Positions 10,052 to 29,964 of a DNA stretch of 64,000 nucleotides are shown here, one piece after another. This DNA comes from Terracidiphilus sp. GTDB taxonomy: Bacteria; Acidobacteriota; Terriglobia; Terriglobales; Acidobacteriaceae. The DNA is taken from assembly GCA_035945795.1 (NCBI GenBank), contig DASYZU010000020.1, forward strand, positions 7,199 to 71,198. The letters are read 5' to 3'. The translations under genes were made by a program, and so were the position numbers. A model generated the notes under the pieces. The model did no database searches. It was not told the DNA's origin and was given only the letters and a program-made list of their open reading frames with translations. The first letter of the stretch is position 1. The number at the start of each line of letters is the position of its first letter.

Positions 10052-10211
10052 GGAGTCTTTTCTTGTCCTTCTTGAGCTGACTTGCAGGCGGGTCCGAACG
10101 AGTGGAGGCGCTGCGACTGCAACTCTATTAGTCTATCAGCGCGCCAAGAGCAGCGTCCACCGGGCGAAATACGAGAGACCCGTACAAAGACGCATATCTA
10201 CACGTATGTTC

Positions 10212-10400: not shown

Positions 10401-10544
10401 GGTTGGTTTTCCCTCTTCAGGTTCATCGGCAAACCTGCGCGCAGGAACAGACCACGAGCAGTGAGAATCACTTCGGATCACCCATCACGGCGCGCTCGCC
10501 GGACTGAAACGCACAGTAGCACCAAAGAAGCATGCCCCGGCGAC

Positions 10545-10573
10545 TTGCCCTTCTACACCCGGAACGATAGGCT
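10545..10573 (+). promoter_or_regulatory. Sigma70-type promoter, probably leaderless transcript
   Basis: TTGCCC (10545-10550), 17 nt spacer, TAGGCT (10568-10573), 6 nt, ATG 10580. No SD sequence. Confidence 0.6.
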
Positions 10574-10579
10574 TAATGC

Positions 10580-15172: not shown

Positions 15173-17314
15173 CTATTTTGCCGCCACCTGCAACTGTGTT
15201 CGCAGACGAATATCAACCGACGACGAACCTATCATTACGTCAAACATTCCGGGAGCAACGATGAATTTCTTTGTGACCACATCGTAGTAAGAGAGCTGCG
15301 ACACAGGAAGGTTGAAGCTGACGTGCTTCGTCTCGCCGGATTCCAGGCTGACACGCTGGAAGCCGCGCAGGCGTTTCATAGGTTGCACGACATCTGACTT
15401 TACCTGGTGAATATACAACTGCGGGACTTCAGCGCCCTTGCGTGCACCACTATTCTGCAGGTCGAAGGAGACTTCCACATCTCCGCCTAAATTGACCTTG
15501 CCCGCGGAGAGCTTCAGGTGGCTGTATTTGAACTCCGTGTAGCTCAGGCCATGCCCGAAGGGATAAAGAGGCACTCCTTTGAAGTACATGTACGTGAAGC
15601 CCTTTGTCACGTCGTACTCGTTCGGTGGAGGCACGCCATCGAGACTCTGGTAAACGGTGTAAGGCAGACGGCCGCCGGGGTTGTTGTCGCCAAACAGCGT
15701 CTGTGCAATGGCCGTTCCGGCAAACTCACCCGGATACCACGCATCGAGAATTGCAGGCAGGTGGTCGTTCGCCCAGTTGACCGCAATGGGGCCTGCATTC
15801 ATCAGGACAAGAACCGTCTTTGGATTAGCCCCATAGACGGCTTCCATCAGTTCTTCCTGCGCTCCCGTCAGGTTCAGATCTCGGCGGTCGCGGCCTTCGG
15901 CCTCAACCCTGAGGTTAGTGCCAAGAAAAAGCAGGACCACGTCCGACTTGTGCGCAAGCTCCACGGCGCGCGAAATGGCGGCGGGGTCGCGCACTTCAGT
16001 GAATCCGGCGCCCTGCTCGTAGCCGACCTGCACTGCCGGGCCAAGCAGTTCTTTCAGTCCCTGCACGGGGCTGATCTTCCGCGTCGGCTTGCCATAGTAG
16101 TTTCCCGTTTCGTAGGCATCGTTTCCGGCGGGCCCAATCACCGCGACGCTCTTGATCTCCTGCTTGTTGAGCGGGAGGAAATGGTTGCGATTCGAGAGCA
16201 GGGTCATGGACTCAAGCGCCGTTTGCAGGGAAAGCTGCAGATGCTCAGGAGAGCGAATGACACTGGCAGTGATCTTCGAATAGGGATTCATCTCCGGTGG
16301 GTCGAAAGCGCCCAGGCGGAACCCGACGCTCAGCACATGCGTGAGCGCGCGATTGACATCGGCTTCCGTCAGCAAGCCGCGTTTAACCGCGAGTGGAATA
16401 TTCTTTTCAAACTCGGGGTCGTCGGAGTCGCATCCCGCCTTGATGGCCCAGGCTGTCGCCTCCACCGGATCTTCGGTGATGTGATGATCATCGACGAGGT
16501 GTGCTACCCCCCCCAGATCGTCGGTGACGAAACCATTGAATCCCCACTGTCCGCGCAGAATGTCAGTGAGCAGATGCTTGTTGATGGCGTCCGGATACCC
16601 GTTAATCGCGTTGTAAGAGGCCATTACCGACTGCGCATGCGCCTCCATGATGGCGTCTTTCCAATGCGGCAACCAGTATTCCATCAAGTTGCGCTCATCC
16701 ACTTGCGCGGAGAGCCGGGTCCGATTGGTTTCGACATTATTGACTGCAAAGTGTTTGACGGTCGCCGCCAGTTCCAAATAGTGCGGGTCGTTCCCCTGAA
16801 GGCCAGTGACGTAGGCGACTGCCATTCTTCCAGTCAGGTATGGGTCCTCACTGAAGACCTCTTGAATACGACCCCAGAGGGGGTTACGGCTGATGTTGAT
16901 GACGGGAGAGCGGTAGACCAGGCCATGCTTGCTGCGCGGTCCATCGGCCCCGATGTTGTAGAGTGCCCGGCCCTCGTCGGCCATGGAATGCGCGATGGTG
17001 TTCACAAGGGGCATGTCCCAGGTGGCGCCCATGGCAATTGCCGCGGGAAACAAAGTCGTTGGCTCCTTGGACCATACACCATGAAGTGTCTGATTCCAGC
17101 CGCCCCAGGCGTTGATGCCCAGCCGCGGAATGCCCTTGTTGAGGTGATTCAGTTGCTGCGCCTTCTCTTCGAGCGTCATGCGCCCAATGAGGTCGGCGAT
17201 TCGCACGTCCATGGGCTTGGAGGGGTCACGAAAAACGGGCTGAGTGCCGGTTTGCGAAAGACAATTACCTGCAAGACAAGCCAGAGAAATTACAAGTGCA
17301 ACTACAGCCTTCAT
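15173..17314 (-). CDS. GH3 beta-glucosidase/beta-xylosidase with C-terminal FN3-like domain
   Basis: SPVINISRNPLWGRIQEVFSEDPYL, KHFAVNN, MASYNAING, GFVTDD (nucleophile Asp), YPFGHGLSYT. GGAGG RBS before ATG 17314; signal peptide. Confidence 0.95.
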   Translation of the reverse strand: MKAVVALVISLACLAGNCLSQTGTQPVFRDPSKPMDVRIADLIGRMTLEEKAQQLNHLNKGIPRLGINAWGGWNQTLHGVWSKEPTTLFPAAIAMGATWDMPLVNTIAHSMADEGRALYNIGADGPRSKHGLVYRSPVINISRNPLWGRIQEVFSEDPYLTGRMAVAYVTGLQGNDPHYLELAATVKHFAVNNVETNRTRLSAQVDERNLMEYWLPHWKDAIMEAHAQSVMASYNAINGYPDAINKHLLTDILRGQWGFNGFVTDDLGGVAHLVDDHHITEDPVEATAWAIKAGCDSDDPEFEKNIPLAVKRGLLTEADVNRALTHVLSVGFRLGAFDPPEMNPYSKITASVIRSPEHLQLSLQTALESMTLLSNRNHFLPLNKQEIKSVAVIGPAGNDAYETGNYYGKPTRKISPVQGLKELLGPAVQVGYEQGAGFTEVRDPAAISRAVELAHKSDVVLLFLGTNLRVEAEGRDRRDLNLTGAQEELMEAVYGANPKTVLVLMNAGPIAVNWANDHLPAILDAWYPGEFAGTAIAQTLFGDNNPGGRLPYTVYQSLDGVPPPNEYDVTKGFTYMYFKGVPLYPFGHGLSYTEFKYSHLKLSAGKVNLGGDVEVSFDLQNSGARKGAEVPQLYIHQVKSDVVQPMKRLRGFQRVSLESGETKHVSFNLPVSQLSYYDVVTKKFIVAPGMFDVMIGSSSVDIRLRTQLQVAAK

Positions 17315-17378
17315 CGAGCCCCTCCATGTGATACGGGTTTGAGTCATGCGAACGATGGTTCTCAAAGTGGAGCCGTAA

Positions 17379-19061
17379 CTACCACTTCAAATGCATCAAT
17401 GATGTGGCCTGCCGTGGCAGACTTGTGGCAATGGTTACCTTGCCGTTGCTTACATCAAGCCATTCAGGAGAGGTGAGAAGCTCAAGTTGCCCCGCTGCCT
17501 TGAGTTGCGCATATTGTTCGGCAGTCGGAGACTGCGGAGAGCCCATCTTCTGCCAAACGCTGTACGAATTGCTGTGTGATTGATCGATCCGGTAGTGCTC
17601 CAACAACACCTTCTTCACGCCGGCCGGAATTCCCGTAACCGTGACCTGCACATCCGCATCGGGAGCAGACATATCGTCGTCATGGTAGTTCCACAGCATG
17701 ACAGCAGCTTCGTGTGCCGCCTTCGTCGCGAAGGCGTCGACGTCCGGCGCCTGGCGCACACCTGCGCTCACAATGTCCTTGACCGGGACCTGGCCGGTAC
17801 TGTTCGTCGCCACGCGATCACCAGACATGAGGCCGGCCATGCGGAAGACGTTCAGAACGGGCTTGTCGATTCCGTTGGTTGCCAGCGTGCGGAATCCCTC
17901 AAAGTAGTCCTTGTTCTCAAATTCAAAGGACCACGAAAGCATCGAGATCAGGTTCACCTTGCTTGCGTCCTCCAGGTCGATCAGTGCCTTCATGGCCGTT
18001 GCCGTATACGAAGCATAAAGCGGCCCGTTCCGGTAGGCGTTTGCAGGATTCACCTTCATCGAACATCCCGCGCAACCCTCGGGATCTGCTTCACTCAGGA
18101 TGATCGGCACATGAATGAACTTCGGATATTTCGCGACAATTCGAAAACCGTTTTCAGCCGACTTCATTTCGTCGGAGAGACCCATGCGCACATGTCCATC
18201 GACAAGAATGGGCCAGCCCTTGGGATGGAACGAGATGAAGTCGAGCGGTACCGGCTTGCCGTCTGCCGCGCTCTTGTCGCTCTGGCAATGCTTCAGGAAG
18301 TCATTCAGAAAGGCGGATGCTTTTTCGTTTGCCGGTCCGGTGCTCGCCGGTCCGCCAACGATCGCGTTGGGCAGCGCGGCGCGGACTCCCGCAACAGCAT
18401 AGTCATAGAGCTTGAAGTACTCGGCCGGGGTTCCGTGCCAGTACATAATGTCCGGCTCGTTCCACACTTCGAAGTACCAGGTGCTCACCTGCTCCCGCCC
18501 GTAGCGCTCGACAAGGTGCTCAGTGTACTTGCGCACCAACTCGCCCCACATTTTGTAGTCCTTGGGCGGATTGTTGACCGATCCTCCCATGGTTGGCCTG
18601 GGATAGTGAAGCTGATACTCGGTGATTCCGGGGACCGTCGCAGCAAGATCCTTGGGCATAAAACCAAGTTCCACCATCGGCCGTACACCGGCGTTCTTGT
18701 ATGCGTCAAAGGTCTGGTCTGTGATGGTGAAGTCATAGACTGGCTTGCCATTCCGGTCGAGGCTGAAAACGTTGGACGAGCTCCACTTCAGCTCCGCAAC
18801 TCCGTTACCCGAAGTGAGAAGATGATGGGCGCGGATGTAGACCGGCACCGGGCTCAGGTCGTGCAACTCCACGAGCAGTTGCTTGCCATATTTCATTGTG
18901 GTGTAGTTTGATTCGTCATAGCCAAACCAGCTGTAGATCGGCTTGTAGACGCCCTGCGGCTTGTCAATATCTACCTGGATAGAGACAGGAGTAGAAGAAG
19001 GAATCTGTGCCGCCGCCTGGATCGCGGCGGCACAGATCAGAATCACAGCAAGCTTACGCAT
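17379..19061 (-). CDS. GH39 glycoside hydrolase (beta-xylosidase / alpha-L-iduronidase family)
   Basis: IRAHHLL, RPMVELGFMP, FEVWNEPD (acid/base), DFISFHPKG, IILSEADP (nucleophile). Signal peptide. Confidence 0.92.
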   Translation of the reverse strand: MRKLAVILICAAAIQAAAQIPSSTPVSIQVDIDKPQGVYKPIYSWFGYDESNYTTMKYGKQLLVELHDLSPVPVYIRAHHLLTSGNGVAELKWSSSNVFSLDRNGKPVYDFTITDQTFDAYKNAGVRPMVELGFMPKDLAATVPGITEYQLHYPRPTMGGSVNNPPKDYKMWGELVRKYTEHLVERYGREQVSTWYFEVWNEPDIMYWHGTPAEYFKLYDYAVAGVRAALPNAIVGGPASTGPANEKASAFLNDFLKHCQSDKSAADGKPVPLDFISFHPKGWPILVDGHVRMGLSDEMKSAENGFRIVAKYPKFIHVPIILSEADPEGCAGCSMKVNPANAYRNGPLYASYTATAMKALIDLEDASKVNLISMLSWSFEFENKDYFEGFRTLATNGIDKPVLNVFRMAGLMSGDRVATNSTGQVPVKDIVSAGVRQAPDVDAFATKAAHEAAVMLWNYHDDDMSAPDADVQVTVTGIPAGVKKVLLEHYRIDQSHSNSYSVWQKMGSPQSPTAEQYAQLKAAGQLELLTSPEWLDVSNGKVTIATSLPRQATSLMHLKW

Positions 19062-19080
19062 GGGTTATTGTCCCTTCCGG

Positions 19081-22000
19081 TTAAAAGTCGTACTTCAGCG
19101 CAAATTGGATATCGCGTGAAGGGACCGAGGTGGAAGTTATCGCGCAGCACGACGATGAAGTAACCGTGGCTCCGGGCGGGTTGAAGCTGGTGGTGTTTGA
19201 AATGTTGAAGAACTCCGCGCGGAAAGACAGCATCGACTCGCCTGGCAGATTGAAGTTCTTGAAGAACGAAGCATCGAACTGCCGGCGCATATCTCCCCGC
19301 AATGTATTTCCGCGCACCGTTCCGTAGGTATACTGCGGCGCCTGGACATAGCGAGTGGAGTCGAACCATTTCTTCAAGGACTTTTGGAAGGTTGTCGAAC
19401 CTCCGGCCGGACTCAGATTGGGACGCTGCCCTCCTACACCGGTATTGGCCACGTCGGAGCCCACCACAGGCGTGTACGGCGTTCCGCTGTGGAGCACGGT
19501 GATGGTTTGCACCTGCCAACCGCCCAGCACTGCATTGGCGACACCGTTGGTTTTAGCCATAAACTGCCTGCCCCGGCCAACTGGAATCATATAGGTTCCA
19601 CTGAAGGCCAGGTTCTGTGGAATGTCGAACGGAGAGTAGGTATGCTCGTAGCCCAGATTTCCTCCCACTTGCGGTGTTTGGCCAAATTGCAGGTACTTTG
19701 ACCATGTATAAGAGACGAGCGCCGATAATCCATTTCCCATCCGATGCTGGAACTTCGATTGCAGGGATTCATACGTGGAGCCCTGATCCTGCGACTCCCA
19801 TGAAATCGGTCCCCAAGGCTGATAAGGCCGTCGCCCCTGGATGGCGCCTGGGCCAGGCGTCGGATCGTTGGCATCGTCTCCGGACTGTAGATGGAGGCCG
19901 TGATTTGCCACATACGCGACTTCAAAGAGAGTTTTGGAAGAAAGCTCGCGCTCCACCGCAAGGCTGTAATGGTCGTCCTCGCCCGCCTGCAGATGAGTAC
20001 GGGTTGGGTTGATTGAAGGGTTCGCTAGCGCCGAGCCAAGCAGCGAGCCATTGAAAAAGTTGGCGAGGGTGCGATTGGGAACGACATTTTGTGTCTGGTT
20101 AACTGTCTCCGCCAACAGGAACGGCAGAATATTTGCGTTGACGCGACCGTCGGTTCCCTCCGGTTCGTAGTACATGCCGAAACCGCCGCGAATCACCGTC
20201 TTGTTGCCAAAGGGCCGCCAGGCAAAACCTATACGCGGGGCAAACTGAAGTTTATCGGTGTAAGTCAGGTTGTAGGGCAGGCCGGCATCGGAGGTGGTCT
20301 GGACATATTGCCCGAAGAACTTCATGGCGTTAGGAGCTGCATACTGGGACGAAGTATTTACCGAACTGGTGTGGCTCGCCACGATGATTGGCTTTGTCTG
20401 CGTGGGGTCAAACGTGCCGAGTTGCCCCAGGTAGCCTTCCATCCAGGGGGAATATTCGTAGCGCAGGCCAATATTGACGGTTAGCCTGCCACTCACCTGT
20501 ATGTCGTCCTGAGCGAAGAACTCCTTGTACCATGCCTGTCCGCCAAAGTTGGCTTTAGGATAGGCACGCGATACGGCGGCGGGATAACCGAGCAGAAAAT
20601 CAGCGAAGGCGTCACCGCCCTTGGTGCTGCCGCCTGGGTTCTGGGTTTCAGCGCCGGTGAAGGTGAAGCTCCCGGCATAGTTCGCGCTGTCGTAGCCAAG
20701 CCACTGGAAGTAGCGGATGAGGACACCAAACTTCAACGACTGGCGACCTTTGAGGATAGTGAAGGTATCAGTCGGCTCAAGAGCTCGACGATCCTGCGAC
20801 TTGGGACGTTGATCGAACGTGGACCCTTGCATGGCTGCGTAGCCGCTAAACGAATAGTCGGGGAATGAGCTTCCTGTGTCGGGTCGCGTCAGCCCGGTGA
20901 ACCCTAGAATACCGTTTGCGGCGTTGAAGTCCGGTCCTTCAAGGAATGCGGCAAGCCGCACATGGCTAGGCAGGCCGTGTATGCGGAAGTCCTGCACTTT
21001 GTTGTTTCCGATATTCGTAATCAGCCCAATAGCAATGTCCTGGCCATTTGAAGTGAGCGCTGCTGTCTTCAACAGAGGCGCAAAATTCGGGTCGGTTTCG
21101 CGATTATTGACATACGCCCAACGCCCAAAGAGATGGTTACGGGAATTGATCTGATGGTCGATGCGAATCGTGAATTGGTCCCAGTCAATGGCCTGCGACG
21201 GCACCGCCTCAAACCTCGTAGCGCTGGCATTCCCGGCTGGATAGTAAGCGAGAATGGCCTTGGCCTGTGCCGAAATGAGTCCGGGGCAGATTACATTCAG
21301 AGCTCCGTTGCAACTGATCTGGTTGCGCGTCGTTACTCCTCCGACCGTAGTTGTTGACTGCGGATCGTAGATTGGATTCAATCCCGCCGCGCTGAAATCG
21401 CCTATTCGCTGGGCACGGGTCGGCACAGTTCCGCTTTCGACCAGCCCTTGCCGGAGTCGCTGTGCTTCGTAATCCACGAAGAAGAATGTTCTGTCCTTGC
21501 CGCTGTACAAATGCCCAATTGTGAGCGGGCCGCCGATATCGCCGCCAAACTGGTTGCGCTTCAAAATGCCTCGGCTCAGCGAGAAGTAGTTGCGGGCATC
21601 CAGTTTCTCGTTGCGGATAAACTCGAACACGCCGCCGTGAATACTGTTCGTGCCCGACTTGGTGGTTGCGTTGAAGCCGGGACCTCCACGGTTGTACTCG
21701 GCGGAATAAGCATTCTGCTGTACGCTAAACTCCTGCAAAGCATCGATCGACGTCTGGATAAACGTTCCCCCCTGATGCTGCTCGCTGACGTCGACGCCGT
21801 CCAGGAGGAACGAGGTGGCGCGTCCGTGAACGCCGCTGATCGTGTTGCCGTTCACGATCTCCGGACGGATCGGCAGGGAGTTGCCGGTAGCCGGCAGCAG
21901 GGCGGCGCCTGGCGTGAGTTCCGCCAACTGGTAGAAACCACGTCCATTCAAGGGTAGGTCAGTGAGTTGCTGATTCGAGACAACAGTACCGATGGTGGCC

Positions 22001-22407
22001 GAATCGGTGGACAGCAGCGGCGATGAGCTGGTGACTTCGATGGTGGTGGTGGTGGCGCCGACCTTCAAGGCAATATCCATGCGAGCGATCTGGCCCACAT
22101 GCACCTCGATATTGCTGGTGGTGGACGTCTGGAAGCCGGGCGCATTAATGCTCAGCTTGTAGACTCCGGCGGCCACCGGGGTGATGACGTAGTCGCCCGT
22201 GGAGTTTGATACGGCTGTCTGAACGATGTTTGTGCCGACGTTCGTGGCCTTGACAGTGGCCTGCGGCACGACTGCTCCCTGCGCATCGGTAACGCGGCCC
22301 ACAAGTCGTCCTGTTTCAACCTGACCGTAGGCGGATAGCGCCGCCACCACGAACAGCCCCAGCGTCACGGCCTTCTGGATTTCCCCAGCAAATTTGAACT
22401 TCCTCAT
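19081..22407 (-). CDS. TonB-dependent receptor, Oar type, with N-terminal carboxypeptidase-regulatory-like domain
   Basis: GRVTDAQGAVVPQATV, DLPLNGR, NATTKSGTNSIHGGVFEFIRN, RNQFGG, FAPRIGFAW, C-terminal RDIQFALKYDF. AGGAGG RBS before ATG 22407; an in-frame upstream ATG exists at 22521. Confidence 0.95.
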   Translation of the reverse strand: MRKFKFAGEIQKAVTLGLFVVAALSAYGQVETGRLVGRVTDAQGAVVPQATVKATNVGTNIVQTAVSNSTGDYVITPVAAGVYKLSINAPGFQTSTTSNIEVHVGQIARMDIALKVGATTTTIEVTSSSPLLSTDSATIGTVVSNQQLTDLPLNGRGFYQLAELTPGAALLPATGNSLPIRPEIVNGNTISGVHGRATSFLLDGVDVSEQHQGGTFIQTSIDALQEFSVQQNAYSAEYNRGGPGFNATTKSGTNSIHGGVFEFIRNEKLDARNYFSLSRGILKRNQFGGDIGGPLTIGHLYSGKDRTFFFVDYEAQRLRQGLVESGTVPTRAQRIGDFSAAGLNPIYDPQSTTTVGGVTTRNQISCNGALNVICPGLISAQAKAILAYYPAGNASATRFEAVPSQAIDWDQFTIRIDHQINSRNHLFGRWAYVNNRETDPNFAPLLKTAALTSNGQDIAIGLITNIGNNKVQDFRIHGLPSHVRLAAFLEGPDFNAANGILGFTGLTRPDTGSSFPDYSFSGYAAMQGSTFDQRPKSQDRRALEPTDTFTILKGRQSLKFGVLIRYFQWLGYDSANYAGSFTFTGAETQNPGGSTKGGDAFADFLLGYPAAVSRAYPKANFGGQAWYKEFFAQDDIQVSGRLTVNIGLRYEYSPWMEGYLGQLGTFDPTQTKPIIVASHTSSVNTSSQYAAPNAMKFFGQYVQTTSDAGLPYNLTYTDKLQFAPRIGFAWRPFGNKTVIRGGFGMYYEPEGTDGRVNANILPFLLAETVNQTQNVVPNRTLANFFNGSLLGSALANPSINPTRTHLQAGEDDHYSLAVERELSSKTLFEVAYVANHGLHLQSGDDANDPTPGPGAIQGRRPYQPWGPISWESQDQGSTYESLQSKFQHRMGNGLSALVSYTWSKYLQFGQTPQVGGNLGYEHTYSPFDIPQNLAFSGTYMIPVGRGRQFMAKTNGVANAVLGGWQVQTITVLHSGTPYTPVVGSDVANTGVGGQRPNLSPAGGSTTFQKSLKKWFDSTRYVQAPQYTYGTVRGNTLRGDMRRQFDASFFKNFNLPGESMLSFRAEFFNISNTTSFNPPGATVTSSSCCAITSTSVPSRDIQFALKYDF

Positions 22408-22769
22408 TCCGCACCTCCTGTTTTTGGTGAATCGTCTGAGTTTCCTTCTCGTTCTTTCTTTGCACCCGGCATTCTGCGGATTCTGCTGACCTGGCCGGCC
22501 TAAGAAGAAACCTGGTGTCATGTCAACCTCCCTGGCAGATACCTCAACATTTTTGAGAGCTCTGTTTTGAGGAGAGGGGCCTTAGTAAACCTTTTCTGGA
22601 ATTTCACTCAACCATTCTTCTCCTTTTTCGCTGCGGAACATGGCCGGCCCACAGCAGCTGATTTGAGTTATCCATGGGGAGGACGGAGCGGTTAGCTCTG
22701 CACCTCCCGGTTGCGGGATATTCCGGCGGGGCAACTTGCGTAATGCGTTTATTTGCCGATCTGTCATAC

Positions 22770-23005
22770 TCACTCCGCCGCCGGGGATTTTGAGACGGAT
22801 AAAAACGGAAAAGCCTTGTCTTTTCCAGGAGCCTTCGGTGCCATCTCCTCGATAAAAGTCACAATCGCTGAGTGATCCAAATCGCGCTGCCGCGATTCAT
22901 CAGCGCGATCAGCATCTGCTGCATAATACTGGTCATGGGCAGCACAACCTTCTTCGATATGGGCTTTCCCATAATTCCGAGTCCAATGAATCCTATTTTT
23001 GACAC
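22770..23005 (-). pseudogene. Internally deleted, frameshifted remnant of a GarR/GlxR-like beta-hydroxyacid dehydrogenase
   Basis: AAGGAG RBS plus GTG 23005 give MSKIGFIGLGIMGKPISK (Rossmann GxGxxG start), fused directly to VVLPMTSIMQQMLIALMNRG. A shifted frame then gives DLDHSAIVTFIEEMA, the GarR-type C-terminus. Confidence 0.85.
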
Positions 23006-23037: not shown

Positions 23038-23817
23038 TCAGCGCGTCGCAGCGCTGAACCAACCCAGACCGTCAGTGGTTTTGCCTTCCGGGCGATACTC
23101 GCAGCCAAGCCATCCTTGATAGCCGATCTCATCGAGCACACGGTAAAGATACTCATAGCGAACTTCGCCTGTATCCGGCTCGTGACGCTCGGGGCACCCA
23201 GCAATCTGAATGTGGCCGCACTCGGATGAGTAGCGCTTGAGGCTGGTGGCCAGATCTCCCTCCATCACCTGCATGTGATAGAGATCCATCTGCATCTTCA
23301 GGTTGTGCGCGCCGACAGCTTCGCAGATCGCGTGAGAGTCTTTTTGGGTAGAAACAATAAAGCCAGGCATGTCCCGCGTGTTGATTGCTTCCAGAAGCAG
23401 CGTGATGTTCTTCGCAGCGAGCTTTTCCGCCGCGTACCTCAGATTCGCGATGAGCGTGGCGCGGCAGGCGGCAGTGTCCGCTCCAGCCGGAGCGATGCCG
23501 GCCATGGCATGAAGCCTGGGCGTTCCGAGATGTTCTGCATAGAGGAGAGCCTTATCCACGCCCTCGCGGAATTCCTGTTCGCGCCCAGGAAGTCCGGTGA
23601 TGCCGCGCTCGCCCGCGCCCCAGTTGCCGGCCGGCATATTGAACAGGACAACCTGAGTGCCGGCAGCCTTGGCCTTGGCCGCTACTTCTTCAGGCGAGTA
23701 TTCGTACGGAAAGAGAAACTCCACCGCATTAAATCCTGCCGCTGCTGCCGCTTTGAAACGGTCGAGGAAAGGCACCTCATTGAACATCATTGATAGGTTT
23801 GCTGCAAATCGAGGCAT
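23038..23817 (-). CDS. hyi: Hydroxypyruvate isomerase family, most like 2-oxo-tetronate isomerase OtnI/YgbM
   Basis: MPRFAANLSMMF, AVEFLFPY, GERGITGLPGRE, EAINTRDMPG, DLYHMQVMEGD, HIQIAG.PERHEP, GYQGWLGCEY. hyi versus otnI cannot be resolved by eye. Confidence 0.92.
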   Translation of the reverse strand: MPRFAANLSMMFNEVPFLDRFKAAAAAGFNAVEFLFPYEYSPEEVAAKAKAAGTQVVLFNMPAGNWGAGERGITGLPGREQEFREGVDKALLYAEHLGTPRLHAMAGIAPAGADTAACRATLIANLRYAAEKLAAKNITLLLEAINTRDMPGFIVSTQKDSHAICEAVGAHNLKMQMDLYHMQVMEGDLATSLKRYSSECGHIQIAGCPERHEPDTGEVRYEYLYRVLDEIGYQGWLGCEYRPEGKTTDGLGWFSAATR

Positions 23818-25103
23818 TCTACTTCCTCTCCCTTCTTTGTGAAGTGCGCCATAATGTCAGCGCCCTGAGTAACTACTCCGATGCGCGCCTTGCTGCCGTA
23901 CTTCTTGAGAGCTGCCGCCAGAGCTTCGTTAAAATCGGTTGTGGACGTGATTCCGATCTTGCGCGCCTCGACGTCCGAAACCCCGTCCGACACAAGCGCG
24001 ACATTGATACGTTTCCGTGTCTGGTCGAAGGCAAGATATGTTGCCGCGGCGACTTCGTCCTCTACCTTTCCTTCGTTCACCAACGCCATTACCTGGTCGC
24101 CGGGCGTGGTGCCGAAGTCGACAAGCTGTGTGTGATCCGGCGCAATGCCTTCCGGCGCGGGAATCATGAGGATGAGCGTCCCTCCATCCTTGACCAGCAT
24201 TCCGCAGTTGTTCACCGGCTTGAAGCCTTGCCACAGATCGCGATCGGCAGGATGCGAGCTGGCGACGACGATGTCCGCCTTCTCTTCGAGTTCAATGGTG
24301 TAGATGGGACGCGCAATATCAACGCCTGCGCGATGCGCCTTCACCACGTCGCCTGCCACGATGCACGCGACCGCGCCCGCGGCATCGAGCACAACATTCA
24401 CAATGAACTTGAGGCCGGACTGGATGGCGATGGCCTCCATCTCCTTGCGGACCTCGTTGTCCACGTTGCCCAGAATCTCGTACACGCGCGGGCCGGCAAT
24501 CAGATGCGTTCTTCCCGTGGTGACGGCGCTGGTAACGCCGGGCTGCACCATCTTGGCTCCGCCTGCATAGCCCGCATACATGTGGGGGATGATGTTGCCG
24601 ATCGCAATCGTGATGGGACTCTCAAGATAACGGCGGCTCACATGGATCGGAATTCCGAGCGGCGTCACGCCCAGATCGACAAAGTCCTTGGGATCGTGAG
24701 AAAGGTTGGTTACCGGAATGCGATGCAGAACAGCTTCGCTCACGCGCTCGGCGATTTCCTTATGCTCCATTCTGCGATGAGTTCCGAGGGCAATCATTGC
24801 CGATATCTCGCTGTCGGGAACTCCGGCCGCGTTCAACTCATCGAGGAGAATGGGCAGAATGAGTTTTTGCGGAGTGCTGCGCGTACTGTCATCCACCAGC
24901 AGCAGCGTGCGTTTGCCGTGACGGGCAACCAACTCTGCAAGCGTCGGGGAGCCGATGGGATTCCGGATTGCGTGGCGTACCGCTGCTTCGATGTCTGGAA
25001 TCGGAGGCGCGTGGCGCGGCCCTTCGATCCATGCGAGATTCTCCTCGGGAATCTCGACGATCCGTTCTTCGTGCCCGTAGGGAAGTGTAACGCGCTTCAT
25101 CAT
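23787..25103 (-). CDS. LarA-superfamily nickel-pincer-dependent alpha-hydroxyacid racemase/epimerase
   Basis: LPYG start, LLVDDSTRSTP, IALGTHR, IIPHMYAGYAGGAKMVQPG, KFIVNVVLD, DIVVASSHPADRDLWQGFK, GGTLILMIPAPEG. Substrate unknown, so the larA symbol is not assigned. Confidence 0.9.
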   Translation of the reverse strand: MMKRVTLPYGHEERIVEIPEENLAWIEGPRHAPPIPDIEAAVRHAIRNPIGSPTLAELVARHGKRTLLLVDDSTRSTPQKLILPILLDELNAAGVPDSEISAMIALGTHRRMEHKEIAERVSEAVLHRIPVTNLSHDPKDFVDLGVTPLGIPIHVSRRYLESPITIAIGNIIPHMYAGYAGGAKMVQPGVTSAVTTGRTHLIAGPRVYEILGNVDNEVRKEMEAIAIQSGLKFIVNVVLDAAGAVACIVAGDVVKAHRAGVDIARPIYTIELEEKADIVVASSHPADRDLWQGFKPVNNCGMLVKDGGTLILMIPAPEGIAPDHTQLVDFGTTPGDQVMALVNEGKVEDEVAAATYLAFDQTRKRINVALVSDGVSDVEARKIGITSTTDFNEALAAALKKYGSKARIGVVTQGADIMAHFTKKGEEVECLDLQQTYQ

Positions 25104-26101
25104 TTGAAGACCTCACTGGTTTCATGGGCTGCGGTTGCCTGTTTACGCGCAATGGCGCGCTGCGCGGCGGCCACGACCGCCTCCACGCTCATGCCGTACT
25201 TCTTGAGCAGATCGGAGTACGGCCCCGATTCAGTAAAGGTGTCATTCACGCCGACGCGCTCGAGCGGAACAGGCGAGAACTGCGACATACACTCGGCCAC
25301 TGCTCCGCCCAAGCCACCGATAATGGAATGCTCTTCGGCCGTAATAATCGCGCCGGTCTCTTCTGCGCAGCGCACGACCAGGTCGGTGTCCAGAGGCTTG
25401 ATGGTGTGCATCTCGACGACGCGGAGACGGATTCCCTCATTTGCGAGCTGCCGTGCCGCCTCGATGGAGCGAGCAACCATCACGCCGCAGGCAATCACCG
25501 TAGCGTCTTCGCCGTCCATCAGCGTGATTCCTTTTCCGATCACCGGCTCGTAGGCATCGGTGAAGATCTCCGGCAGTTCATTTCGGCAGAGCCGGAAGTA
25601 GACCGGCCCGTTCCACGCAACGATCTGCGGCAGCAGTTTCTTGACCGCGAGTGAATCAGCAGGGACAACGACCGTCATCCTGGGAAGACTGCGCATGATC
25701 GCGAGATCGGACACAGTCTGGTGCGTCGGACCATCGAACGAGTCCGAGAGCCCCGCATAGGCCCCCGCCAGCTTGACGTTGGCACCGCCATAGCAGAGAT
25801 GCGTGCGCACCATCTCCAATGCGCGCGTAGCGAACAAGAAGGCGAATGTATTGGCGATGGGAATCTTGCCGCTATTGGCCAGGCCAACTGCTACATCGAC
25901 AAGCGCCGGCTCAGCAATACCTACATTGATGAAGCGCTTGGGATAGGCGGCTTCAAACATGTAGCTGAAATCGGAACTCTGCACATCCGCGCTGAGCACA
26001 ACAACATCGTTGCGCTGAGCACCCATCTGCACCAGTGCTTCCCCGTAGGCCTTCCGAACCGGCGTGGGGCTGCCGAAAGGATTTCGAATTACGCTCTCCA
26101 T
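25100..26101 (-). CDS. Transketolase, C-terminal (pyrimidine-binding plus C-terminal) subunit
   Basis: RKAYGEAL, VVLSADV, RFINVGIAE, FAFLFATRALEMVR, DGPTHQ, GPVYFRL, TIKPLD, AEEHSIIGGLG. ATGA overlap with the LarA gene. Confidence 0.93.
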   Translation of the reverse strand: MESVIRNPFGSPTPVRKAYGEALVQMGAQRNDVVVLSADVQSSDFSYMFEAAYPKRFINVGIAEPALVDVAVGLANSGKIPIANTFAFLFATRALEMVRTHLCYGGANVKLAGAYAGLSDSFDGPTHQTVSDLAIMRSLPRMTVVVPADSLAVKKLLPQIVAWNGPVYFRLCRNELPEIFTDAYEPVIGKGITLMDGEDATVIACGVMVARSIEAARQLANEGIRLRVVEMHTIKPLDTDLVVRCAEETGAIITAEEHSIIGGLGGAVAECMSQFSPVPLERVGVNDTFTESGPYSDLLKKYGMSVEAVVAAAQRAIARKQATAAHETSEVFK

Positions 26102-26991
26102 TCGCTTATCCTTTCTTCCAACTCAGCCAGTGCAATCTGGAACTGTTTGTCGTCCGGAATGCCCCCGTGCCAGGCGGGCTGATTCTCCATGAAGCTCACG
26201 CCTTTACCCTTGGTGGTGCGGGCAATAATGACCACCGGACGACCGTGAATTTCGTTTGCACGATCCAGCGCATTCAGAATCTCTGCTACGTTGTGGCCGT
26301 GAATCTCGATGACATGCCAGTTGAACGAAGCCCACTTGTCGGCGATGGGTTCCGTGGGCATCACGTGGTGCGTGGTTCCCGTTTGCTGCACGCCGTTGTA
26401 GTCCACAATGGCTGTCAGGTTATCGAGGCCGAACTTGGCGCCAACCATCAGGCCTTCCCATATGACACCGCTGTTCAATTCGCCATCGCCCAGGATGGCG
26501 TAGATGTTGCGGTTGGACCCGTCCATGCGCGCAGACAACGCCATACCAGACGCGATGGCCACGCCATGTCCCAGCGGTCCCGCAGCCACTTCCACGCCCG
26601 GCGTCTTCTGCGGTTCAGGGTGGCCCTGCAGGTGGCTGTTCAGTGCGCGGAAGGTGGGCAGTTCCTCAACCGGAAAGAACCCGCGATGCGCAAGGCACGT
26701 GTAGAGCATGGCGCAGGCATGTCCCTTGGAAAAAACGAGGCGGTCTCGATCTTCCCATTTGGGATTCGTGGGATCGATCCTGAGCTGATGAAAGTAGAGG
26801 CAGGTGAGGATCTCCGCAATGGAGAACGCTCCGCCAATGTGTCCGGACTTGCGCCCGTAGACCATGCGCAGCACCTGGGCGCGGTACTCGTAAGCGCGAC
26901 GCGAGAGATCGGCAATCATCTCAGCCGTGTGCAGCGCGCCATACGGATAGACGCGGGCCGGCGTTGCCTGATCGGTTAAAGACGCGATCAT
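26089..26991 (-). CDS. Transketolase, N-terminal ThDP-binding subunit
   Basis: SGHIGG, RDRLVFSKGHA, LQGHP, GPLGHG, ThDP motif GDGE...IVDYN, TTKGKGVSFMEN...WHG. Confidence 0.93.
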   Translation of the reverse strand: MIASLTDQATPARVYPYGALHTAEMIADLSRRAYEYRAQVLRMVYGRKSGHIGGAFSIAEILTCLYFHQLRIDPTNPKWEDRDRLVFSKGHACAMLYTCLAHRGFFPVEELPTFRALNSHLQGHPEPQKTPGVEVAAGPLGHGVAIASGMALSARMDGSNRNIYAILGDGELNSGVIWEGLMVGAKFGLDNLTAIVDYNGVQQTGTTHHVMPTEPIADKWASFNWHVIEIHGHNVAEILNALDRANEIHGRPVVIIARTTKGKGVSFMENQPAWHGGIPDDKQFQIALAELEERISEWRA

Positions 26992-27683
26992 GCGTGTACC
27001 TCCGTCGCGACGTTGCCATAGAGTGTGCGGCGAATGCAGTCAAAGCCAGTGGTGCCGCTGTTGTAGACGGGCACTGCGGTCTTACCCAGGAAGGGCTCCA
27101 GCGCAGACATGGAGAGCTGCGCGAGCACGATGGAATCGACTTTGCCGGAGAGTTTGTCGATTTCCTCGAGCAAAATGTTGTTGTGCGTATCCTTGTCGCC
27201 CTTCTGAATGGCCGCAAAGGCCTCGGGGCGCATCACGGTTGTGATATCCACCGGCAATCCCTTTTCAGCCGCCACAATGCGCAGCAAACGTTCAGACGAG
27301 GGCACGGTGGTGGCCAGCGTCGCCAGCAGTCCTACGCGGCGGCCTTGTGCAACAGCAAGCTCCATCATGGGGCGATCGATCTGCATGATCGGAATATCGA
27401 TCATGGGGCGCGCCAGCTCAGCCGCATAGTTGAAGGTAGAGCAAGCCAGAAGAATCAGTTCAACGCCAGACTCCTGCAGGTTGTGTGCGTATTGCGCGAA
27501 CTTGAAGTAGTTGTTCTTCGGAATCACGCCGACGCCGGCGGCGATATTATCGCGCTGAATCGTGTCGTCGCAGAGGTGCATTACGTCGACGTCGGGAATA
27601 TAGCGCTCAAGAAATGGCTGCATGGCGCGAATGGTGAGATGAACCGCATGAATGATGCCGATAGTCTTTGTTTGCTTTTCCAT
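26988..27683 (-). CDS. Asp/Glu/hydantoin racemase-fold protein, single-cysteine variant
   Basis: ILLACST (first catalytic Cys), PIMQIDRPM, RVGLLAT..TT. The second catalytic position reads IVLAQLSM rather than GCT. Confidence 0.85.
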   Translation of the reverse strand: MEKQTKTIGIIHAVHLTIRAMQPFLERYIPDVDVMHLCDDTIQRDNIAAGVGVIPKNNYFKFAQYAHNLQESGVELILLACSTFNYAAELARPMIDIPIMQIDRPMMELAVAQGRRVGLLATLATTVPSSERLLRIVAAEKGLPVDITTVMRPEAFAAIQKGDKDTHNNILLEEIDKLSGKVDSIVLAQLSMSALEPFLGKTAVPVYNSGTTGFDCIRRTLYGNVATEVHA

Positions 27684-29232: not shown

Positions 29233-29964
29233 ATGTCAATGCTAAAACCGGTTTCCAGAGTCACATTAGGAGAGCAGGTTGCGGCCCAGCTCTCCGATCA
29301 GATCGCCGAGGGCAGGTGGAAGCCTGGCGAAAAGCTGCCTTCCGAGGCAGAGCTTTGCTTTGCTTTGAATATCGGGCGGTCTACGCTGCGCGAGGCGTTG
29401 AAGTCGCTGGCATTCGTGGGCATGGTGCAGATGCGGCCGGGCGAGGGAACCTATGTTATTGAAGGGTCAGTACTTTTGATCGAACGCATCATGGCGAAGG
29501 GGCTCCTAAAGACCGATAAGGAACTCCAGGACGTTGGCGAGGCCCGCCTCCTGATTGAGGGTGAAACCGCGGCTCTGGCTGCGGAGCGAGCAGACACGAA
29601 CGATCTGCAGCAACTGGACTCGCTGATGGAGGAAATGACGCAGAGCCTGAACGGCGTCGGTCGCGATTTTGTCGATTTGGACGTGGAATTTCACCTCACC
29701 ATCGCCCAATGCGCCAAGAACCAGATGCTGTTCGAACTCCTGACCCCGATTCGCGGCGTCCTCAAGGAGTGGATCAGTAAGTCGCAGGAGTTGCCGGGAA
29801 TCAAAGAAAACGCACACGGGCAGCACGCCAAGATCCTTGCCGCCGTGCGCAGCCGGGAGCCGGAAAAGGCAAGGCACGCCATGAGGACTCATTTGCAGAC
29901 CTGCGAAAAAATGTTCAGCCTGCTGGGTAGAATCTCAGTCAACAAAGAACACATTGAAGTTTGA
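29233..29964 (+). CDS. GntR/FadR-family transcriptional regulator (wHTH plus FCD)
   Basis: GEKLPSEAELCFALNIGRSTLREALKSL..VG...RPGEGTYV; FCD motif DVEFHLTIAQCAKN. Confidence 0.95.
   Translation: MSMLKPVSRVTLGEQVAAQLSDQIAEGRWKPGEKLPSEAELCFALNIGRSTLREALKSLAFVGMVQMRPGEGTYVIEGSVLLIERIMAKGLLKTDKELQDVGEARLLIEGETAALAAERADTNDLQQLDSLMEEMTQSLNGVGRDFVDLDVEFHLTIAQCAKNQMLFELLTPIRGVLKEWISKSQELPGIKENAHGQHAKILAAVRSREPEKARHAMRTHLQTCEKMFSLLGRISVNKEHIEV

What the first reader, a model, noticed from the sequence alone, without database searches (positions are those of the whole stretch)
23787..25103. LarA-family enzyme without local cofactor genes and with an altered active-site loop
Seen: no larB, larC, larE or nickel transporter in the 64 kb. 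The motifs DSTR, GTH and PH.YAGYAGG.K are present, but the usual NH(D) catalytic-His segment reads TNLSHDP. Established: LarA needs the nickel-pincer nucleotide made by LarB, LarE and LarC, and sequence changes near the catalytic histidines track substrate class. Inference: a non-lactate epimerase of a possibly uncharacterised subfamily, supplied with cofactor in trans.
Basis: partly seen in the sequence, partly recalled or inferred. Interest (0 to 1): 0.55.

Follow-up and report, generated by a model that had tools for sequence, protein, structure and literature searches.

The report
Uncharacterised nickel-pincer sugar-acid epimerase subfamily
This is an intact gene for a nickel-cofactor enzyme of the lactate-racemase superfamily that belongs to an untested branch. 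It most likely flips one hydroxyl group of an imported sugar acid, and its cofactor-making genes lie elsewhere in the same genome.

Summary
The ORF at 23787-25103 (minus strand, 438 aa) is a complete LarA-superfamily protein: Pfam Lar_N 1.2e-48, AlphaFold pLDDT 95, TM 0.9 to the Isosphaera LarA.

Every published catalytic, cofactor-binding and carboxylate-binding residue is present. These are His109 and His174, Lys184, His200, Arg75, Gln292 and Lys295.

The 'TNLSHDP' loop is not a catalytic-histidine segment. Its His varies even among orthologues.

- No lar gene lies in the window.
- A complete larE-larC-larB cluster sits on another contig (C10) of the same genome.
- The protein scores below every NCBIfam LarA-homologue equivalog cut-off.

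It belongs to a monophyletic subfamily found in nine phyla. That subfamily has an invariant, polar pocket signature: Gln79, Met175, Tyr176, Asn298, Asp323, Ala354, Thr355, Tyr356.

Its conserved neighbours are carboxylate transporters, GntR/FCD regulators, a single-Cys Asp/Glu-racemase-fold protein, xylose-isomerase-fold isomerases (OtnI/Hyi here) and a split transketolase. No kinase is among them.

Best reading: a C2-epimerase of a sugar acid in an undescribed catabolic route. The substrate is not identified.

I rate it a new variant of a known kind, of moderate interest. The scan has not reported this subfamily on other DNA.

The parts
23787..25103 (-). LarA-superfamily gene (438 aa), member of an uncharacterised subfamily
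   Evidence: Pfam Lar_N 1.2e-48 plus LarA_C. Below all NCBIfam equivalog cut-offs. AF2 pLDDT 95.1 and Foldseek TM 0.88/0.91 to 9eid. dN/dS 0.07-0.11 against orthologues.
24879..24890 (-). DSTR, aa 72-75: Asp72 and Arg75 equivalents (catalytic Asp; NPN and carboxylate-binding Arg)
   Evidence: Alignment to L. plantarum LarA. D-x-T-R is invariant in the subfamily. Coordinates.
24777..24785 (-). GTH, aa 107-109: His109 = catalytic His108 of LarA
24690..24710 (-). TNLSHDP loop, aa 132-138: variable, not catalytic. Replaces the N-H-D motif of neighbouring homologues.
   Evidence: Only Asn133 is conserved; His136 varies. N-H-D is common in neighbours. The loop is absent from the published residue lists.
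24552..24587 (-). PHMYAGYAGGAK, aa 173-184: catalytic His174, pocket residues Met175 and Tyr176, NPN-tethering Lys184
24504..24506 (-). His200, nickel ligand, 16 residues after Lys184 as in LarA
24219..24233 (-). WQGFK, aa 291-295: Trp291 at the Tyr294 position; Gln292 and Lys295 bind the substrate carboxylate
   Evidence: Roles taken from PMC11851776.
24039..24044 (-). Ala354-Thr355 at the Trp358/Thr359 specificity positions of LarA. Tyr356 follows.
   Evidence: Position roles from PMC11770544.
27712..28989 (-). First gene of the operon: MFS transporter of the anionic sugar-acid type
   Evidence: MFS_1 3.8e-53; TIGR00893 D-galactonate-transporter subfamily 243 bits. Next to the LarA homologue in 26 loci, window included.
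26988..27683 (-). Asp/Glu-racemase-fold protein with one catalytic Cys (Cys81); the most frequent neighbour of the LarA homologue
   Evidence: PF01177 7.9e-17. Present in 30 of the loci, window included. Alignment A1 shows invariant LACSTFN, and AQLSMS at the second catalytic site.
25100..26991 (-). Split transketolase: N-terminal subunit 26089-26991, C-terminal subunit 25100-26101
   Evidence: Transketolase_N 1.1e-54; Transket_pyr plus Transketolase_C. Adjacent to the LarA homologue in 23-24 loci from at least five phyla. Its stop overlaps the LarA-homologue start by 4 nt.
23038..23817 (-). OtnI/Hyi-type isomerase (2-oxo-tetronate or hydroxypyruvate isomerase family). Its start overlaps the LarA-homologue end by 31 nt.
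   Evidence: NF043033 391 bits (cut-off 325). TIGR03234 351.4 (cut-off 353.45). E. coli YgbM 1k77 5.9e-81.
29233..29964 (+). Divergent GntR/FCD regulator
   Evidence: Conserved in 17 loci. Promoter-like site for the operon at 29239-29210 on the minus strand.

Best explanation
The gene encodes an active nickel-pincer-nucleotide (NPN) dependent 2-hydroxyacid epimerase of the LarA superfamily.

Cofactor supply (genes shown, loading inferred): NPN is made by LarB, LarC and LarE, encoded on contig C10 of the same genome. It is then tethered to Lys184, with the nickel completed by His200.

Mechanism (inferred from conserved residues): the substrate carboxylate is held by Arg75, Gln292 and Lys295. 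His109 and His174 act as the alternating acid/base pair. A hydride moves from C2 to the cofactor and back onto the other face, which inverts C2.

Substrate class (inferred): not lactate or malate. The C-alpha-substituent pocket is enlarged (Ala354 in place of Trp358) and lined by invariant polar residues: Gln79, Tyr176, Asn298, Asp323, Thr355 and Tyr356. There is no extra basic residue. This fits a neutral polyhydroxy chain, that is, a sugar acid or keto-sugar acid.

Role (inferred from gene context): the acid enters through the operon's MFS transporter. The enzyme sets the C2 configuration that the stereospecific partner enzymes need. Those partners are the single-Cys racemase-fold protein, the OtnI/Hyi-type isomerase and the split transketolase. 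Together they would carry the carbon into the pentose-phosphate pool without a kinase.

Most likely substrate size is C4-C5, for example erythronate/threonate or 3-oxo-tetronate. This last point is the weakest step.
For: - Family and fold.
- All catalytic, NPN-binding and carboxylate-binding residues are present and invariant in 47 orthologues of 47-100% identity from nine phyla.
- Purifying selection: dN/dS 0.07-0.11.
- The larE-larC-larB cluster is above equivalog cut-offs in the same genome.
- The protein is not in any characterised group. Its best NCBIfam scores are 292/500 (malate racemase), 259/540 and 244/460. Its nearest representatives are also unassigned.
- The clade is monophyletic; the core clade has support 0.99.
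- Subfamily-specific invariant residues are polar and not basic.
- Trp at helix alpha11 and Ala at helix alpha14 are the features that PMC7583248 links to the hexonate-epimerase groups 18-20.
- Context is conserved across phyla. It includes four kinds of carboxylate transporter, GntR/FCD regulators, the racemase-fold protein, xylose-isomerase-fold proteins and the split transketolase. One locus has an enolase-superfamily dehydratase, and several have glycoside hydrolases.
- Genes are translationally coupled in the window.
Against: - No activity, cofactor loading or substrate has been measured.
- The pocket reading rests on alignment and a model without ligand. I could not inspect coordinates.
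- The partner set varies between loci. Some have the racemase-fold protein without transketolase, some the reverse, and a few have neither. The common denominator may therefore be only 'a carboxylate'.
- The nearest profile is still the malate racemase model.
- OtnI/Hyi plus a GarR equivalog in close relatives would also fit a C3 or tartrate-type route.
- The GarR gene is only a remnant in this genome, so the operon may be partly decayed here.
- In 3 of 5 other carrier genomes I did not find a full larBCE set. Their completeness is unknown.
Confidence: 0.6

Rival explanations
1. It is a malate racemase or tartrate epimerase, serving a dicarboxylate route that ends in hydroxypyruvate, tartronate semialdehyde and glycerate.
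For: - The best NCBIfam profile is the LarAH6 malate racemase (292 bits). Mar2 is among the best PDB sequence hits (1e-51).
- Characterised malate racemases also epimerise tartrate (PMC11770544).
- TctABC transporters and MFS transporters of the tartrate/galactonate type flank orthologues.
- An OtnI/Hyi-type isomerase and a GarR (tartronate semialdehyde reductase) equivalog follow the gene in close relatives.
Against: - The score is far below the cut-off of 500.
- The His/Gln-Lys pair ('GHK') that binds the second carboxylate in malate racemases is Ala354-Thr355 here.
- No subfamily-specific basic residue exists, and an invariant Asp323 is present.
- No tartrate dehydrogenase or dehydratase and no malic enzyme appears in the 52 loci.
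- Malate racemase is the best profile for all neighbouring unassigned clades too, so that hit says little.
Confidence: 0.12
2. It is a hexonate 2-epimerase of the GntE type (D-mannonate to D-gluconate or a close isomer).
For: - It shares Trp at the Tyr294 position and Ala at the Trp358 position with the hexonate-epimerase groups 18-20 of PMC7583248.
- Glycoside hydrolases, and in one locus an acid-sugar dehydratase, are neighbours.
Against: - The loop after His174 is Met-Tyr, not Glu-Val/Ser. Position 359 is Thr, not His.
- It has 19% identity and TM 0.68 to GntE2 (4nar).
- The hexonate-epimerase profile NF052594 gives 61.5 bits against a cut-off of 500.
- None of the loci carries gluconate kinase, 6-phosphogluconate dehydrogenase or uxuA/uxuB-type genes.
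Confidence: 0.12
3. It is a lactate, glycerate or short aliphatic 2-hydroxyacid racemase, like LarA or the broad-spectrum Isosphaera enzyme.
For: The best structural and sequence match in the PDB is the broad-spectrum LarA of Isosphaera pallida. All databases name the orthologues 'nickel-dependent lactate racemase'.
Against: - 244 bits against a cut-off of 460 for LarA, and 259 against 540 for LarAH10.
- Only 32% and 25% identity to the solved enzymes.
- The hydrophobic pocket residues (Phe/Leu, Phe/Met, Trp) are replaced by Met, Tyr and Ala, with further polar residues added.
- Four loci carry a true lactate-racemase equivalog (528 bits) beside this gene, which argues for different jobs.
- No lactate permease or lactate dehydrogenase lies nearby.
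Confidence: 0.08
4. It is an inactive or decaying relic: the operon has lost its dehydrogenase, and the enzyme is no longer loaded with cofactor.
For: The GarR-type gene downstream is reduced to its two ends. The operon is patchy: 0 of 150 other genomes of the same family have an orthologue.
Against: - The reading frame is intact and all functional residues are kept.
- dN/dS is 0.07-0.11, including against the 96%-identical orthologue.
- larBCE is intact in the genome.
- Start and stop overlaps with the neighbouring genes are preserved.
Confidence: 0.05

Closest known systems
LarA of Isosphaera pallida (LarAH2 / 'Sar', PDB 9EIA/9EID), broad-spectrum short-chain 2-hydroxyacid racemase
   Same: Same two-domain fold (TM 0.88/0.91, rmsd 2.3 A). 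Same catalytic His pair, Lys tether, His nickel ligand and Arg/Gln/Lys carboxylate clamp.
   Different: Only 32% identity. The pocket that holds the C-alpha substituent (Leu174, Met175, Trp356, Gln357 in that enzyme) is Met175, Tyr176, Ala354, Thr355 here. The Tyr294 that hydrogen-bonds the 2-OH is Trp291. The gene context is sugar-acid-like, not lactate-like.
Malate racemase Mar2 / LarAH6 (PDB 6D6Z, 7S91; NCBIfam NF052593)
   Same: Best-scoring curated profile (292 bits) and 31% identity. Same mechanism residues.
   Different: Below the cut-off of 500. Lacks the His/Gln-Lys pair for the second carboxylate. No malic-enzyme context.
D-gluconate 2-epimerases GntE and hexonate-epimerase groups 18-20 (PMC7583248; PDB 4NAR)
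   Same: Trp on helix alpha11 and a small residue (Ala) on helix alpha14, which open the pocket for a polyhydroxy chain. Sugar-acid catabolic context.
   Different: 19% identity. The loop is Met-Tyr instead of Glu-Val/Ser, and there is no His at position 359. Partner genes are a transketolase and isomerases rather than gluconate kinase or a mannonate-pathway enzyme.
Lactate racemase LarA of Lactiplantibacillus plantarum (PDB 5HUQ/6C1W)
   Same: Founding member. Residue-for-residue match of His108, His174, Lys184, His200, Arg75, Gln295 and Lys298, with the same Lys-to-His spacing of 16.
   Different: 25% identity. In L. plantarum larA lies with larBCE and a nickel transporter in one locus (established knowledge). 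Here the cofactor genes lie apart on another contig and serve at least two LarA homologues.
Tetronate catabolism OtnI-OtnK-OtnC with LtnD/DenD (E. coli ygb cluster; reviewed in PMC13753588)
   Same: An OtnI-equivalog isomerase (391 bits above cut-off 325; YgbM 5.9e-81). In relatives, a GarR-family dehydrogenase follows the LarA homologue.
   Different: No DUF1537 kinase and no class-II-aldolase decarboxylase in any locus. Instead there are a split transketolase, a racemase-fold protein and an NPN epimerase. The dehydrogenase scores as tartronate semialdehyde reductase (429 bits against cut-off 397), not as L-threonate dehydrogenase (170 against 350).

Membership tests
LarA superfamily (NPN-dependent 2-hydroxyacid racemases/epimerases) | Lar_N and LarA_C domains and the two-domain LarA fold | tested here: met
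   PF09861 1.2e-48 and PF21113 1.2e-06. AF2 pLDDT 95.1. Foldseek TM 0.88/0.91 to 9eid and 0.86 to 5huq.
LarA superfamily (NPN-dependent 2-hydroxyacid racemases/epimerases) | Two catalytic histidines (His108 and His174 of LarA) | tested here: met
   His109 and His174 align to them. Invariant in all 47 orthologues.
LarA superfamily (NPN-dependent 2-hydroxyacid racemases/epimerases) | NPN-binding residues: Lys184 tether, His200 nickel ligand, Arg75 | tested here: met
   Lys184, His200 (Lys+16) and Arg75 are present and invariant.
LarA superfamily (NPN-dependent 2-hydroxyacid racemases/epimerases) | Carboxylate clamp Gln295/Lys298 and Asp72 | tested here: met
   Gln292, Lys295 and Asp72 are invariant.
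LarA superfamily (NPN-dependent 2-hydroxyacid racemases/epimerases) | NPN biosynthesis genes larB, larC and larE in the genome | tested here: met
   C10:7674-10782: LarB 288 bits (cut-off 175), LarC1 201 (90) plus LarC2 133 (50), LarE 318 (150).
LarA superfamily (NPN-dependent 2-hydroxyacid racemases/epimerases) | Covalently bound NPN and measurable C2 inversion | not testable with these tools
   Needs purified protein, mass spectrometry and enzyme assays.
Lactate racemase proper (NF033504; LAR group) | Profile score at or above 460 bits, and Phe175/Phe176/Trp358 pocket | tested here: not met
   243.7 bits. The pocket is Met175/Tyr176/Ala354.
Malate racemases (NF052593 LarAH6, NF052595 LarAH5) | Profile score at or above 500 or 462 bits, and His/Gln-Lys at positions 358/359 | tested here: not met
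   292.4 and 235.1 bits. Ala354-Thr355. Rule taken from PMC11770544.
Hexonate 2-epimerases (GntE; groups 18-20; NF052594) | Loop Glu-Val/Ser after His174 | tested here: not met
   The loop is Met-Tyr.
Hexonate 2-epimerases (GntE; groups 18-20; NF052594) | Trp on alpha11 and Ala/Val on alpha14 | tested here: met
   Trp291 and Ala354. Trp291 is also common in many unassigned neighbours.
Hexonate 2-epimerases (GntE; groups 18-20; NF052594) | His at position 359 | tested here: not met
   Thr355.
Hexonate 2-epimerases (GntE; groups 18-20; NF052594) | Profile score at or above 500 bits | tested here: not met
   61.5 bits.
Hydrophobic 2-hydroxyacid racemases (LarAH10, NF052525) | Profile score at or above 540 bits, and Phe/Tyr at position 358 with a hydrophobic pocket | tested here: not met
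   259.1 bits. Ala354 with polar neighbours.
Single-histidine LarA-like enzymes (LarAH14/15/16, NF052592; PDB 9Q2U/9Q3J) | One catalytic His replaced; about 500 aa; profile score at or above 740 bits | tested here: not met
   Both histidines are present. 438 aa. 59.7 bits.

The most novel reading that the evidence does not exclude
The subfamily is the stereo-inverting step of an undescribed, kinase-free sugar-acid catabolic route found in at least nine phyla. In that route an aldehydo- or keto-acid (uronate or tetronate level) is shortened by alternating xylose-isomerase-fold isomerases and a dedicated split transketolase. Two-carbon units pass to the pentose-phosphate pool, leaving glyoxylate, tartronate semialdehyde or CO2. 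The NPN epimerase would set the alpha-hydroxy carbon to the configuration the transketolase accepts. That would be the first link between the nickel-pincer cofactor and transketolase chemistry.
Probability: 0.3. Interest if true: 0.75.

Novelty: new variant of a known kind. Interest (0 to 1): 0.45.

Why it matters
The LarA superfamily has over 10,000 members, but only a handful of substrate classes have been assayed. This clade is easy to recognise: His-Met-Tyr after the second catalytic histidine, and Ala-Thr-Tyr on helix alpha14. It is under strong purifying selection and occurs in soil, sediment and digester bacteria of nine phyla. Public databases annotate it uniformly, and probably wrongly, as 'lactate racemase'.

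Its fixed partnership with a split transketolase, sugar isomerases and a single-Cys racemase-fold protein gives a concrete, testable lead. The lead points to a new NPN-dependent reaction and to a sugar-acid pathway that spends no ATP on a kinase step. It also illustrates a practical point: a LarA homologue without nearby larBCE is not an orphan, because one cofactor cluster can serve several scattered homologues.

Tried and rejected
I took context from the search for related loci on genome contigs and my own ORF clustering.
- Literature searches linking LarA or nickel-pincer with transketolase, OtnI, tartronate semialdehyde or fructuronate found nothing relevant. The gene-context table of PMC7583248 has no group with transketolase, hydroxypyruvate isomerase or hydantoin-racemase COGs.
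- I first took Trp291 (at the Tyr294 position) as subfamily-specific. The 138 nearest representatives show it is common there, so I dropped it as a marker.
- The racemase-fold partner could not be tied to arylmalonate decarboxylase or maleate isomerase. A profile search of the PDB gives only weak hits (about 1e-6) to glutamate, aspartate and hydantoin racemases.
I therefore could not measure how far the TNLSHDP loop lies from the active site, and could not dock anything.
- I considered tartrate as the substrate and rated it low. See the rival explanations.
- I did not examine the phosphate-binding residues of the transketolase, for lack of a referenced reference sequence.
Full report
THE OBJECT

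The ORF at 23787-25103 lies on the minus strand and encodes 438 residues without a stop.
- It carries the Pfam domains Lar_N (E = 1.2e-48) and LarA_C.
- It matches solved LarA homologues by sequence: Isosphaera pallida LarA 4e-53, malate racemase Mar2 1e-51, L. plantarum LarA 2.5e-37.
- An AlphaFold2 model built on 48 homologues is confident (mean pLDDT 95.1, pTM 0.91). Only the last 14 residues are disordered.
- Foldseek places the model on the closed form of I. pallida LarA (TM 0.88/0.91, rmsd 2.3 A, 32% identity). Next come L. plantarum LarA (25%), Mar2 (31%) and the Thermotoga gluconate epimerase 4NAR (19%).

CHECKING THE OBSERVATION

The residue-by-residue alignment to L. plantarum LarA gives these correspondences:

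| This protein | L. plantarum LarA | Role |
|---|---|---|
| GTH, His109 | His108 | catalytic |
| PH, His174 | His174 | catalytic |
| GGAK, Lys184 | Lys184 | tethers the cofactor |
| GRTH, His200 | His200 | nickel ligand; same 16-residue spacing from the lysine |
| DSTR, Asp72 and Arg75 | Asp72, Arg75 | catalytic Asp; NPN and carboxylate-binding Arg |
| WQGFK, Gln292 and Lys295 | Gln295, Lys298 | carboxylate clamp |

These are the residues the literature lists as catalytic, NPN-binding or carboxylate-binding (PMC7583248, PMC11770544, PMC11851776).

The TNLSHDP loop is not on those lists.
- In L. plantarum LarA it aligns to 'MHVSTDD', and in Mar2 to 'IDHDIDD'.
- In 47 orthologues only Asn133 is fixed. 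His136 is H, Q, A, T, K, N or D.
- More distant members of the clade, and most neighbouring clades, carry N-H-D at positions 133-135.

The active site proper is unaltered.

COFACTOR GENES

None of the 40 largest ORFs of the window is a lar accessory gene or a nickel transporter.

The assembly has 5.27 Mb in 128 contigs and is rated 100% complete. The window is C20:7199-71198.

On contig C10 it contains one larE-larC-larB cluster (7674-10782, minus strand). Every gene scores above its NCBIfam equivalog cut-off: LarB 288/175, LarC1 201/90 plus LarC2 133/50, LarE 318/150.

No LarA homologue lies next to that cluster. The genome holds a second full LarA homologue on C39 (373 bits to the LarA profile, also below cut-off) and two weak Lar_N-like proteins. 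Cofactor supply in trans is therefore the normal arrangement in this organism.

PLACING THE PROTEIN

Against NCBIfam it scores as follows:

| Model | Score (bits) | Cut-off (bits) |
|---|---|---|
| LarAH6 malate racemase | 292 | 500 |
| LarAH10 | 259 | 540 |
| Lactate racemase | 244 | 460 |
| LarAH5 | 235 | 462 |
| Putative hexonate epimerase | 61 | 500 |
| Single-His LarAH14/15/16 | 60 | 740 |

Other placement results:
- A word-indexed search found more than 120 clusters at 70% identity or more. All carry only the automatic name 'nickel-dependent lactate racemase'.
- An exhaustive HMMER search of 1.84 billion representatives found 1157 proteins at E <= 1e-30.
- At 50% clustering the clade collapses to about five representatives (604 to 374 bits). 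Below them there is a step down to 336 bits.
- The ten nearest representatives also fall below every equivalog cut-off.
- In a FastTree tree of 164 sequences, rooted on lactate-racemase-type paralogues, all orthologues from the fetched loci form one clade. The core of 20 leaves has support 0.99; the full clade of 25 leaves has support 0.52.
- The source is probably a Terracidiphilus species: one Terracidiphilus MAG has a 96% identical orthologue.
- The clade reaches 47-67% identity in Chloroflexota, Planctomycetota, Sumerlaeota, KSB1, Bacteroidota, Atribacterota, Bacillota and Spirochaetota.
- It is patchy. None of 150 other genomes sampled from the same GTDB family has an orthologue at E <= 1e-100.

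THE POCKET

PMC11770544 names the positions equivalent to Phe175, Phe176, Trp358 and Thr359 of LarA as the main specificity determinants, and gives these rules:

| Group | Residues at 175 / 176 / 358 / 359 |
|---|---|
| Lactate racemases | F, F, W, E/Q |
| Gluconate epimerases | E, V, A, H |
| 2-Hydroxyglutarate racemases | Y, F, H/Q, T |
| Malate racemases | x, x, H/Q, K |
| This protein | Met175, Tyr176, Ala354, Thr355 |

This protein's set is invariant in the clade and matches none of the rules.

A contrast of the clade with 139 out-group sequences adds residues that are invariant only in the clade: Gln79, Tyr159, Ile172, Asn298, Asp323, Tyr356 and Asp416. None of them is basic.

PMC7583248 notes that the hexonate-epimerase groups 18-20 combine a Trp on helix alpha11 with Ala or Val on helix alpha14. 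This clade has both (Trp291, Ala354). Trp291 is, however, common among its unassigned neighbours.

In the I. pallida co-structures the C-alpha substituent points at the four specificity positions, and Tyr294 hydrogen-bonds the 2-OH. My inference is that the pocket is opened by Trp-to-Ala and lined with hydroxyl, amide and carboxylate side chains. That suits a neutral polyhydroxy chain better than a methyl group or a second carboxylate.

CONTEXT

In the window the gene is the fifth of six co-oriented, tightly packed genes:
1. MFS transporter of the anionic sugar-acid type.
2. Asp/Glu-racemase-fold protein.
3. Transketolase N-terminal subunit.
4. Transketolase C-terminal subunit.
5. LarA homologue.
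6. OtnI/Hyi-type isomerase.

A divergent GntR/FCD regulator and a promoter-like site lie upstream. The transketolase stop overlaps the LarA-homologue start (ATGA). The LarA-homologue end overlaps the isomerase start by 31 nt.

I clustered the ORFs of 54 fetched loci. Cluster counts include the window, and many loci are cut by contig ends, so the counts are lower bounds.

| Neighbour of the LarA homologue | Loci |
|---|---|
| Racemase-fold gene | 30 |
| MFS transporter | 26 |
| Split transketolase | 23-24 |
| OtnI/Hyi-type gene | 18 |
| GntR/FCD regulator | 17 |

Outside the Acidobacteriota:
- TctABC or TRAP transporters replace the MFS transporter.
- Two xylose-isomerase-fold proteins replace the OtnI/Hyi-type gene.
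- Four loci add an iron alcohol dehydrogenase and a true lactate-racemase equivalog (528 bits).
- One locus adds an enolase-superfamily dehydratase.
- Some loci add glycoside hydrolases.

No locus has a kinase, a class-II aldolase or a tartrate or malate enzyme next to the gene.

In eight acidobacterial relatives a tartronate semialdehyde reductase equivalog (429 bits, cut-off 397) follows the isomerase. In the window only its first 20 and last 45 or so residues remain, at 22772-23005.

The racemase-fold partner keeps one catalytic cysteine (LACSTFN) and has AQLSMS at the second site. It is very conserved, at 57-88% identity across phyla.

SELECTION

dN/dS of the LarA homologue against six orthologues is 0.07-0.11. 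The gene is maintained, not decaying.

WHAT IT MOST LIKELY DOES

Shown:
- Family, fold and full set of mechanism residues.
- Cofactor genes in the genome.
- A distinct, conserved pocket.
- A conserved context of carboxylate uptake, isomerases and transketolase.

Inferred:
- The protein is loaded with NPN.
- It inverts C2 of an imported sugar acid or keto-sugar acid by the proton-coupled hydride-transfer mechanism of LarA.
- Its role is to hand the partner enzymes the stereoisomer they accept.

One scheme is consistent with all partners, but it is speculative. Xylose-isomerase-fold enzymes would turn an aldehydo-acid into a keto-acid carrying a terminal ketol. The transketolase would then transfer that two-carbon unit to an aldehyde acceptor. 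What remains is a two-carbons-shorter aldehydo-acid: glyoxylate from a C4 acid, or tartronate semialdehyde from a C5 acid. Tartronate semialdehyde is the substrate of Hyi and GarR.

Transketolase donors need a defined configuration at the carbon next to the keto group (established knowledge). In a 3-oxo-tetronate-type acid that carbon is the 2-hydroxy carbon, which a LarA-type enzyme can invert.

I found no paper that describes such a route or links LarA homologues with transketolase.

The substrate remains unknown. I rate 'sugar acid' at about 0.65 and a C4-level acid at about 0.3.

RIVALS

- **Malate or tartrate racemase.** Disfavoured by the missing His/Gln-Lys pair, the absence of any extra basic residue and the lack of dicarboxylate enzymes nearby.
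- **GntE-type hexonate epimerase.** Shares two pocket features but fails the loop, the position-359 His, the profile score and the context.
- **Lactate or short-chain racemase.** Fails on score, pocket and context, and true LarA paralogues coexist with it in the same loci.
- **Relic.** Contradicted by selection and by the intact residues.

VERDICT

- The 'altered catalytic loop' should be dropped.
- The enzyme is a new, uncharacterised variant within a known superfamily. Such clades were expected by the authors of the field (PMC11851776).
- The interest lies mainly in its conserved partnership with a transketolase module. That partnership is the subject of a separate note on this window (e1-5181118).
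- The scan has not recorded this subfamily on other DNA.

Noticed in passing
window 22772-23005 (minus strand): Remnant of a GarR-type tartronate semialdehyde reductase gene. Only residues 1-20 and about 250-294 of the full-length relative (L013:11093-11977) find a match. The gene is intact after the isomerase in eight acidobacterial relatives.
   Followed up: partly
window 26988-27683 (minus strand); alignment A1: The Asp/Glu-racemase-fold protein has a single catalytic Cys (LACSTFN) and AQLSMS at the second site. It is 57-88% identical across phyla and is the most frequent neighbour of the LarA homologue. Its only PDB relatives are weak hits (about 1e-6) to glutamate, aspartate and hydantoin racemases. 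Its reaction is unknown.
   Followed up: partly
genomes G153, G154, G155 (carriers of loci L036, L053, L052): Three other carriers of the subfamily gave no full larBCE set. The Phycisphaerae MAG has LarB and LarE but no LarC hit. The Sphaerochaeta and Bacillota MAGs have none above cut-off. Their completeness is unknown, so this may reflect assembly gaps, divergent genes or true orphans.
   Followed up: partly
G000 contig C10:5870-13385 (locus L064): The larE-larC-larB cluster is flanked by a second MFS transporter of the anionic type, an amidohydrolase with weak lactonase similarity, and a NapH/NapG-like ferredoxin fusion. No LarA homologue is adjacent.
   Followed up: no
G000 C39 (L065:6146-7477), C101 (L003:1303-2613), C32 (L004:1315-2613): A second full LarA homologue (373 bits to the LarA profile, below the cut-off of 460) lies after a dihydropteroate synthase gene. 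Two proteins of about 435 aa have only weak Lar_N or DUF362 matches, and one of them lies after an MFS gene.
   Followed up: partly
window 15173-22521 (minus strand) and loci L012, L013, L022, L042, L050; L045: An outer-membrane beta-barrel receptor, a GH3 and a GH39 follow the operon in the window and in several acidobacterial relatives. In a Ktedonobacterales MAG two GH39 genes directly precede the racemase-fold/LarA pair. This hints that the acid is released from a glycan.
   Followed up: partly
window 23787-23828 (aa 425-438 of the LarA homologue): The C-terminal 14 residues are predicted disordered (pLDDT below 50) and are missing from many orthologues. Their coding sequence overlaps the start of the downstream isomerase gene by 31 nt.
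   Followed up: no
window 48382-50899 (plus strand): Adjacent genes encode a DinB_2 plus FGE-sulfatase-domain protein and a histidine-specific methyltransferase (Methyltransf_33). This looks like an EgtB/EgtD-type ergothioneine pair.
   Followed up: no
GTDB family of G000 (150 sampled genomes): No orthologue of the LarA homologue at E <= 1e-100 in any other sampled genome of the same family, including one of the same genus. Yet 60-67% identical copies occur in Chloroflexota. This patchy spread suggests horizontal transfer of the module.
   Followed up: partly
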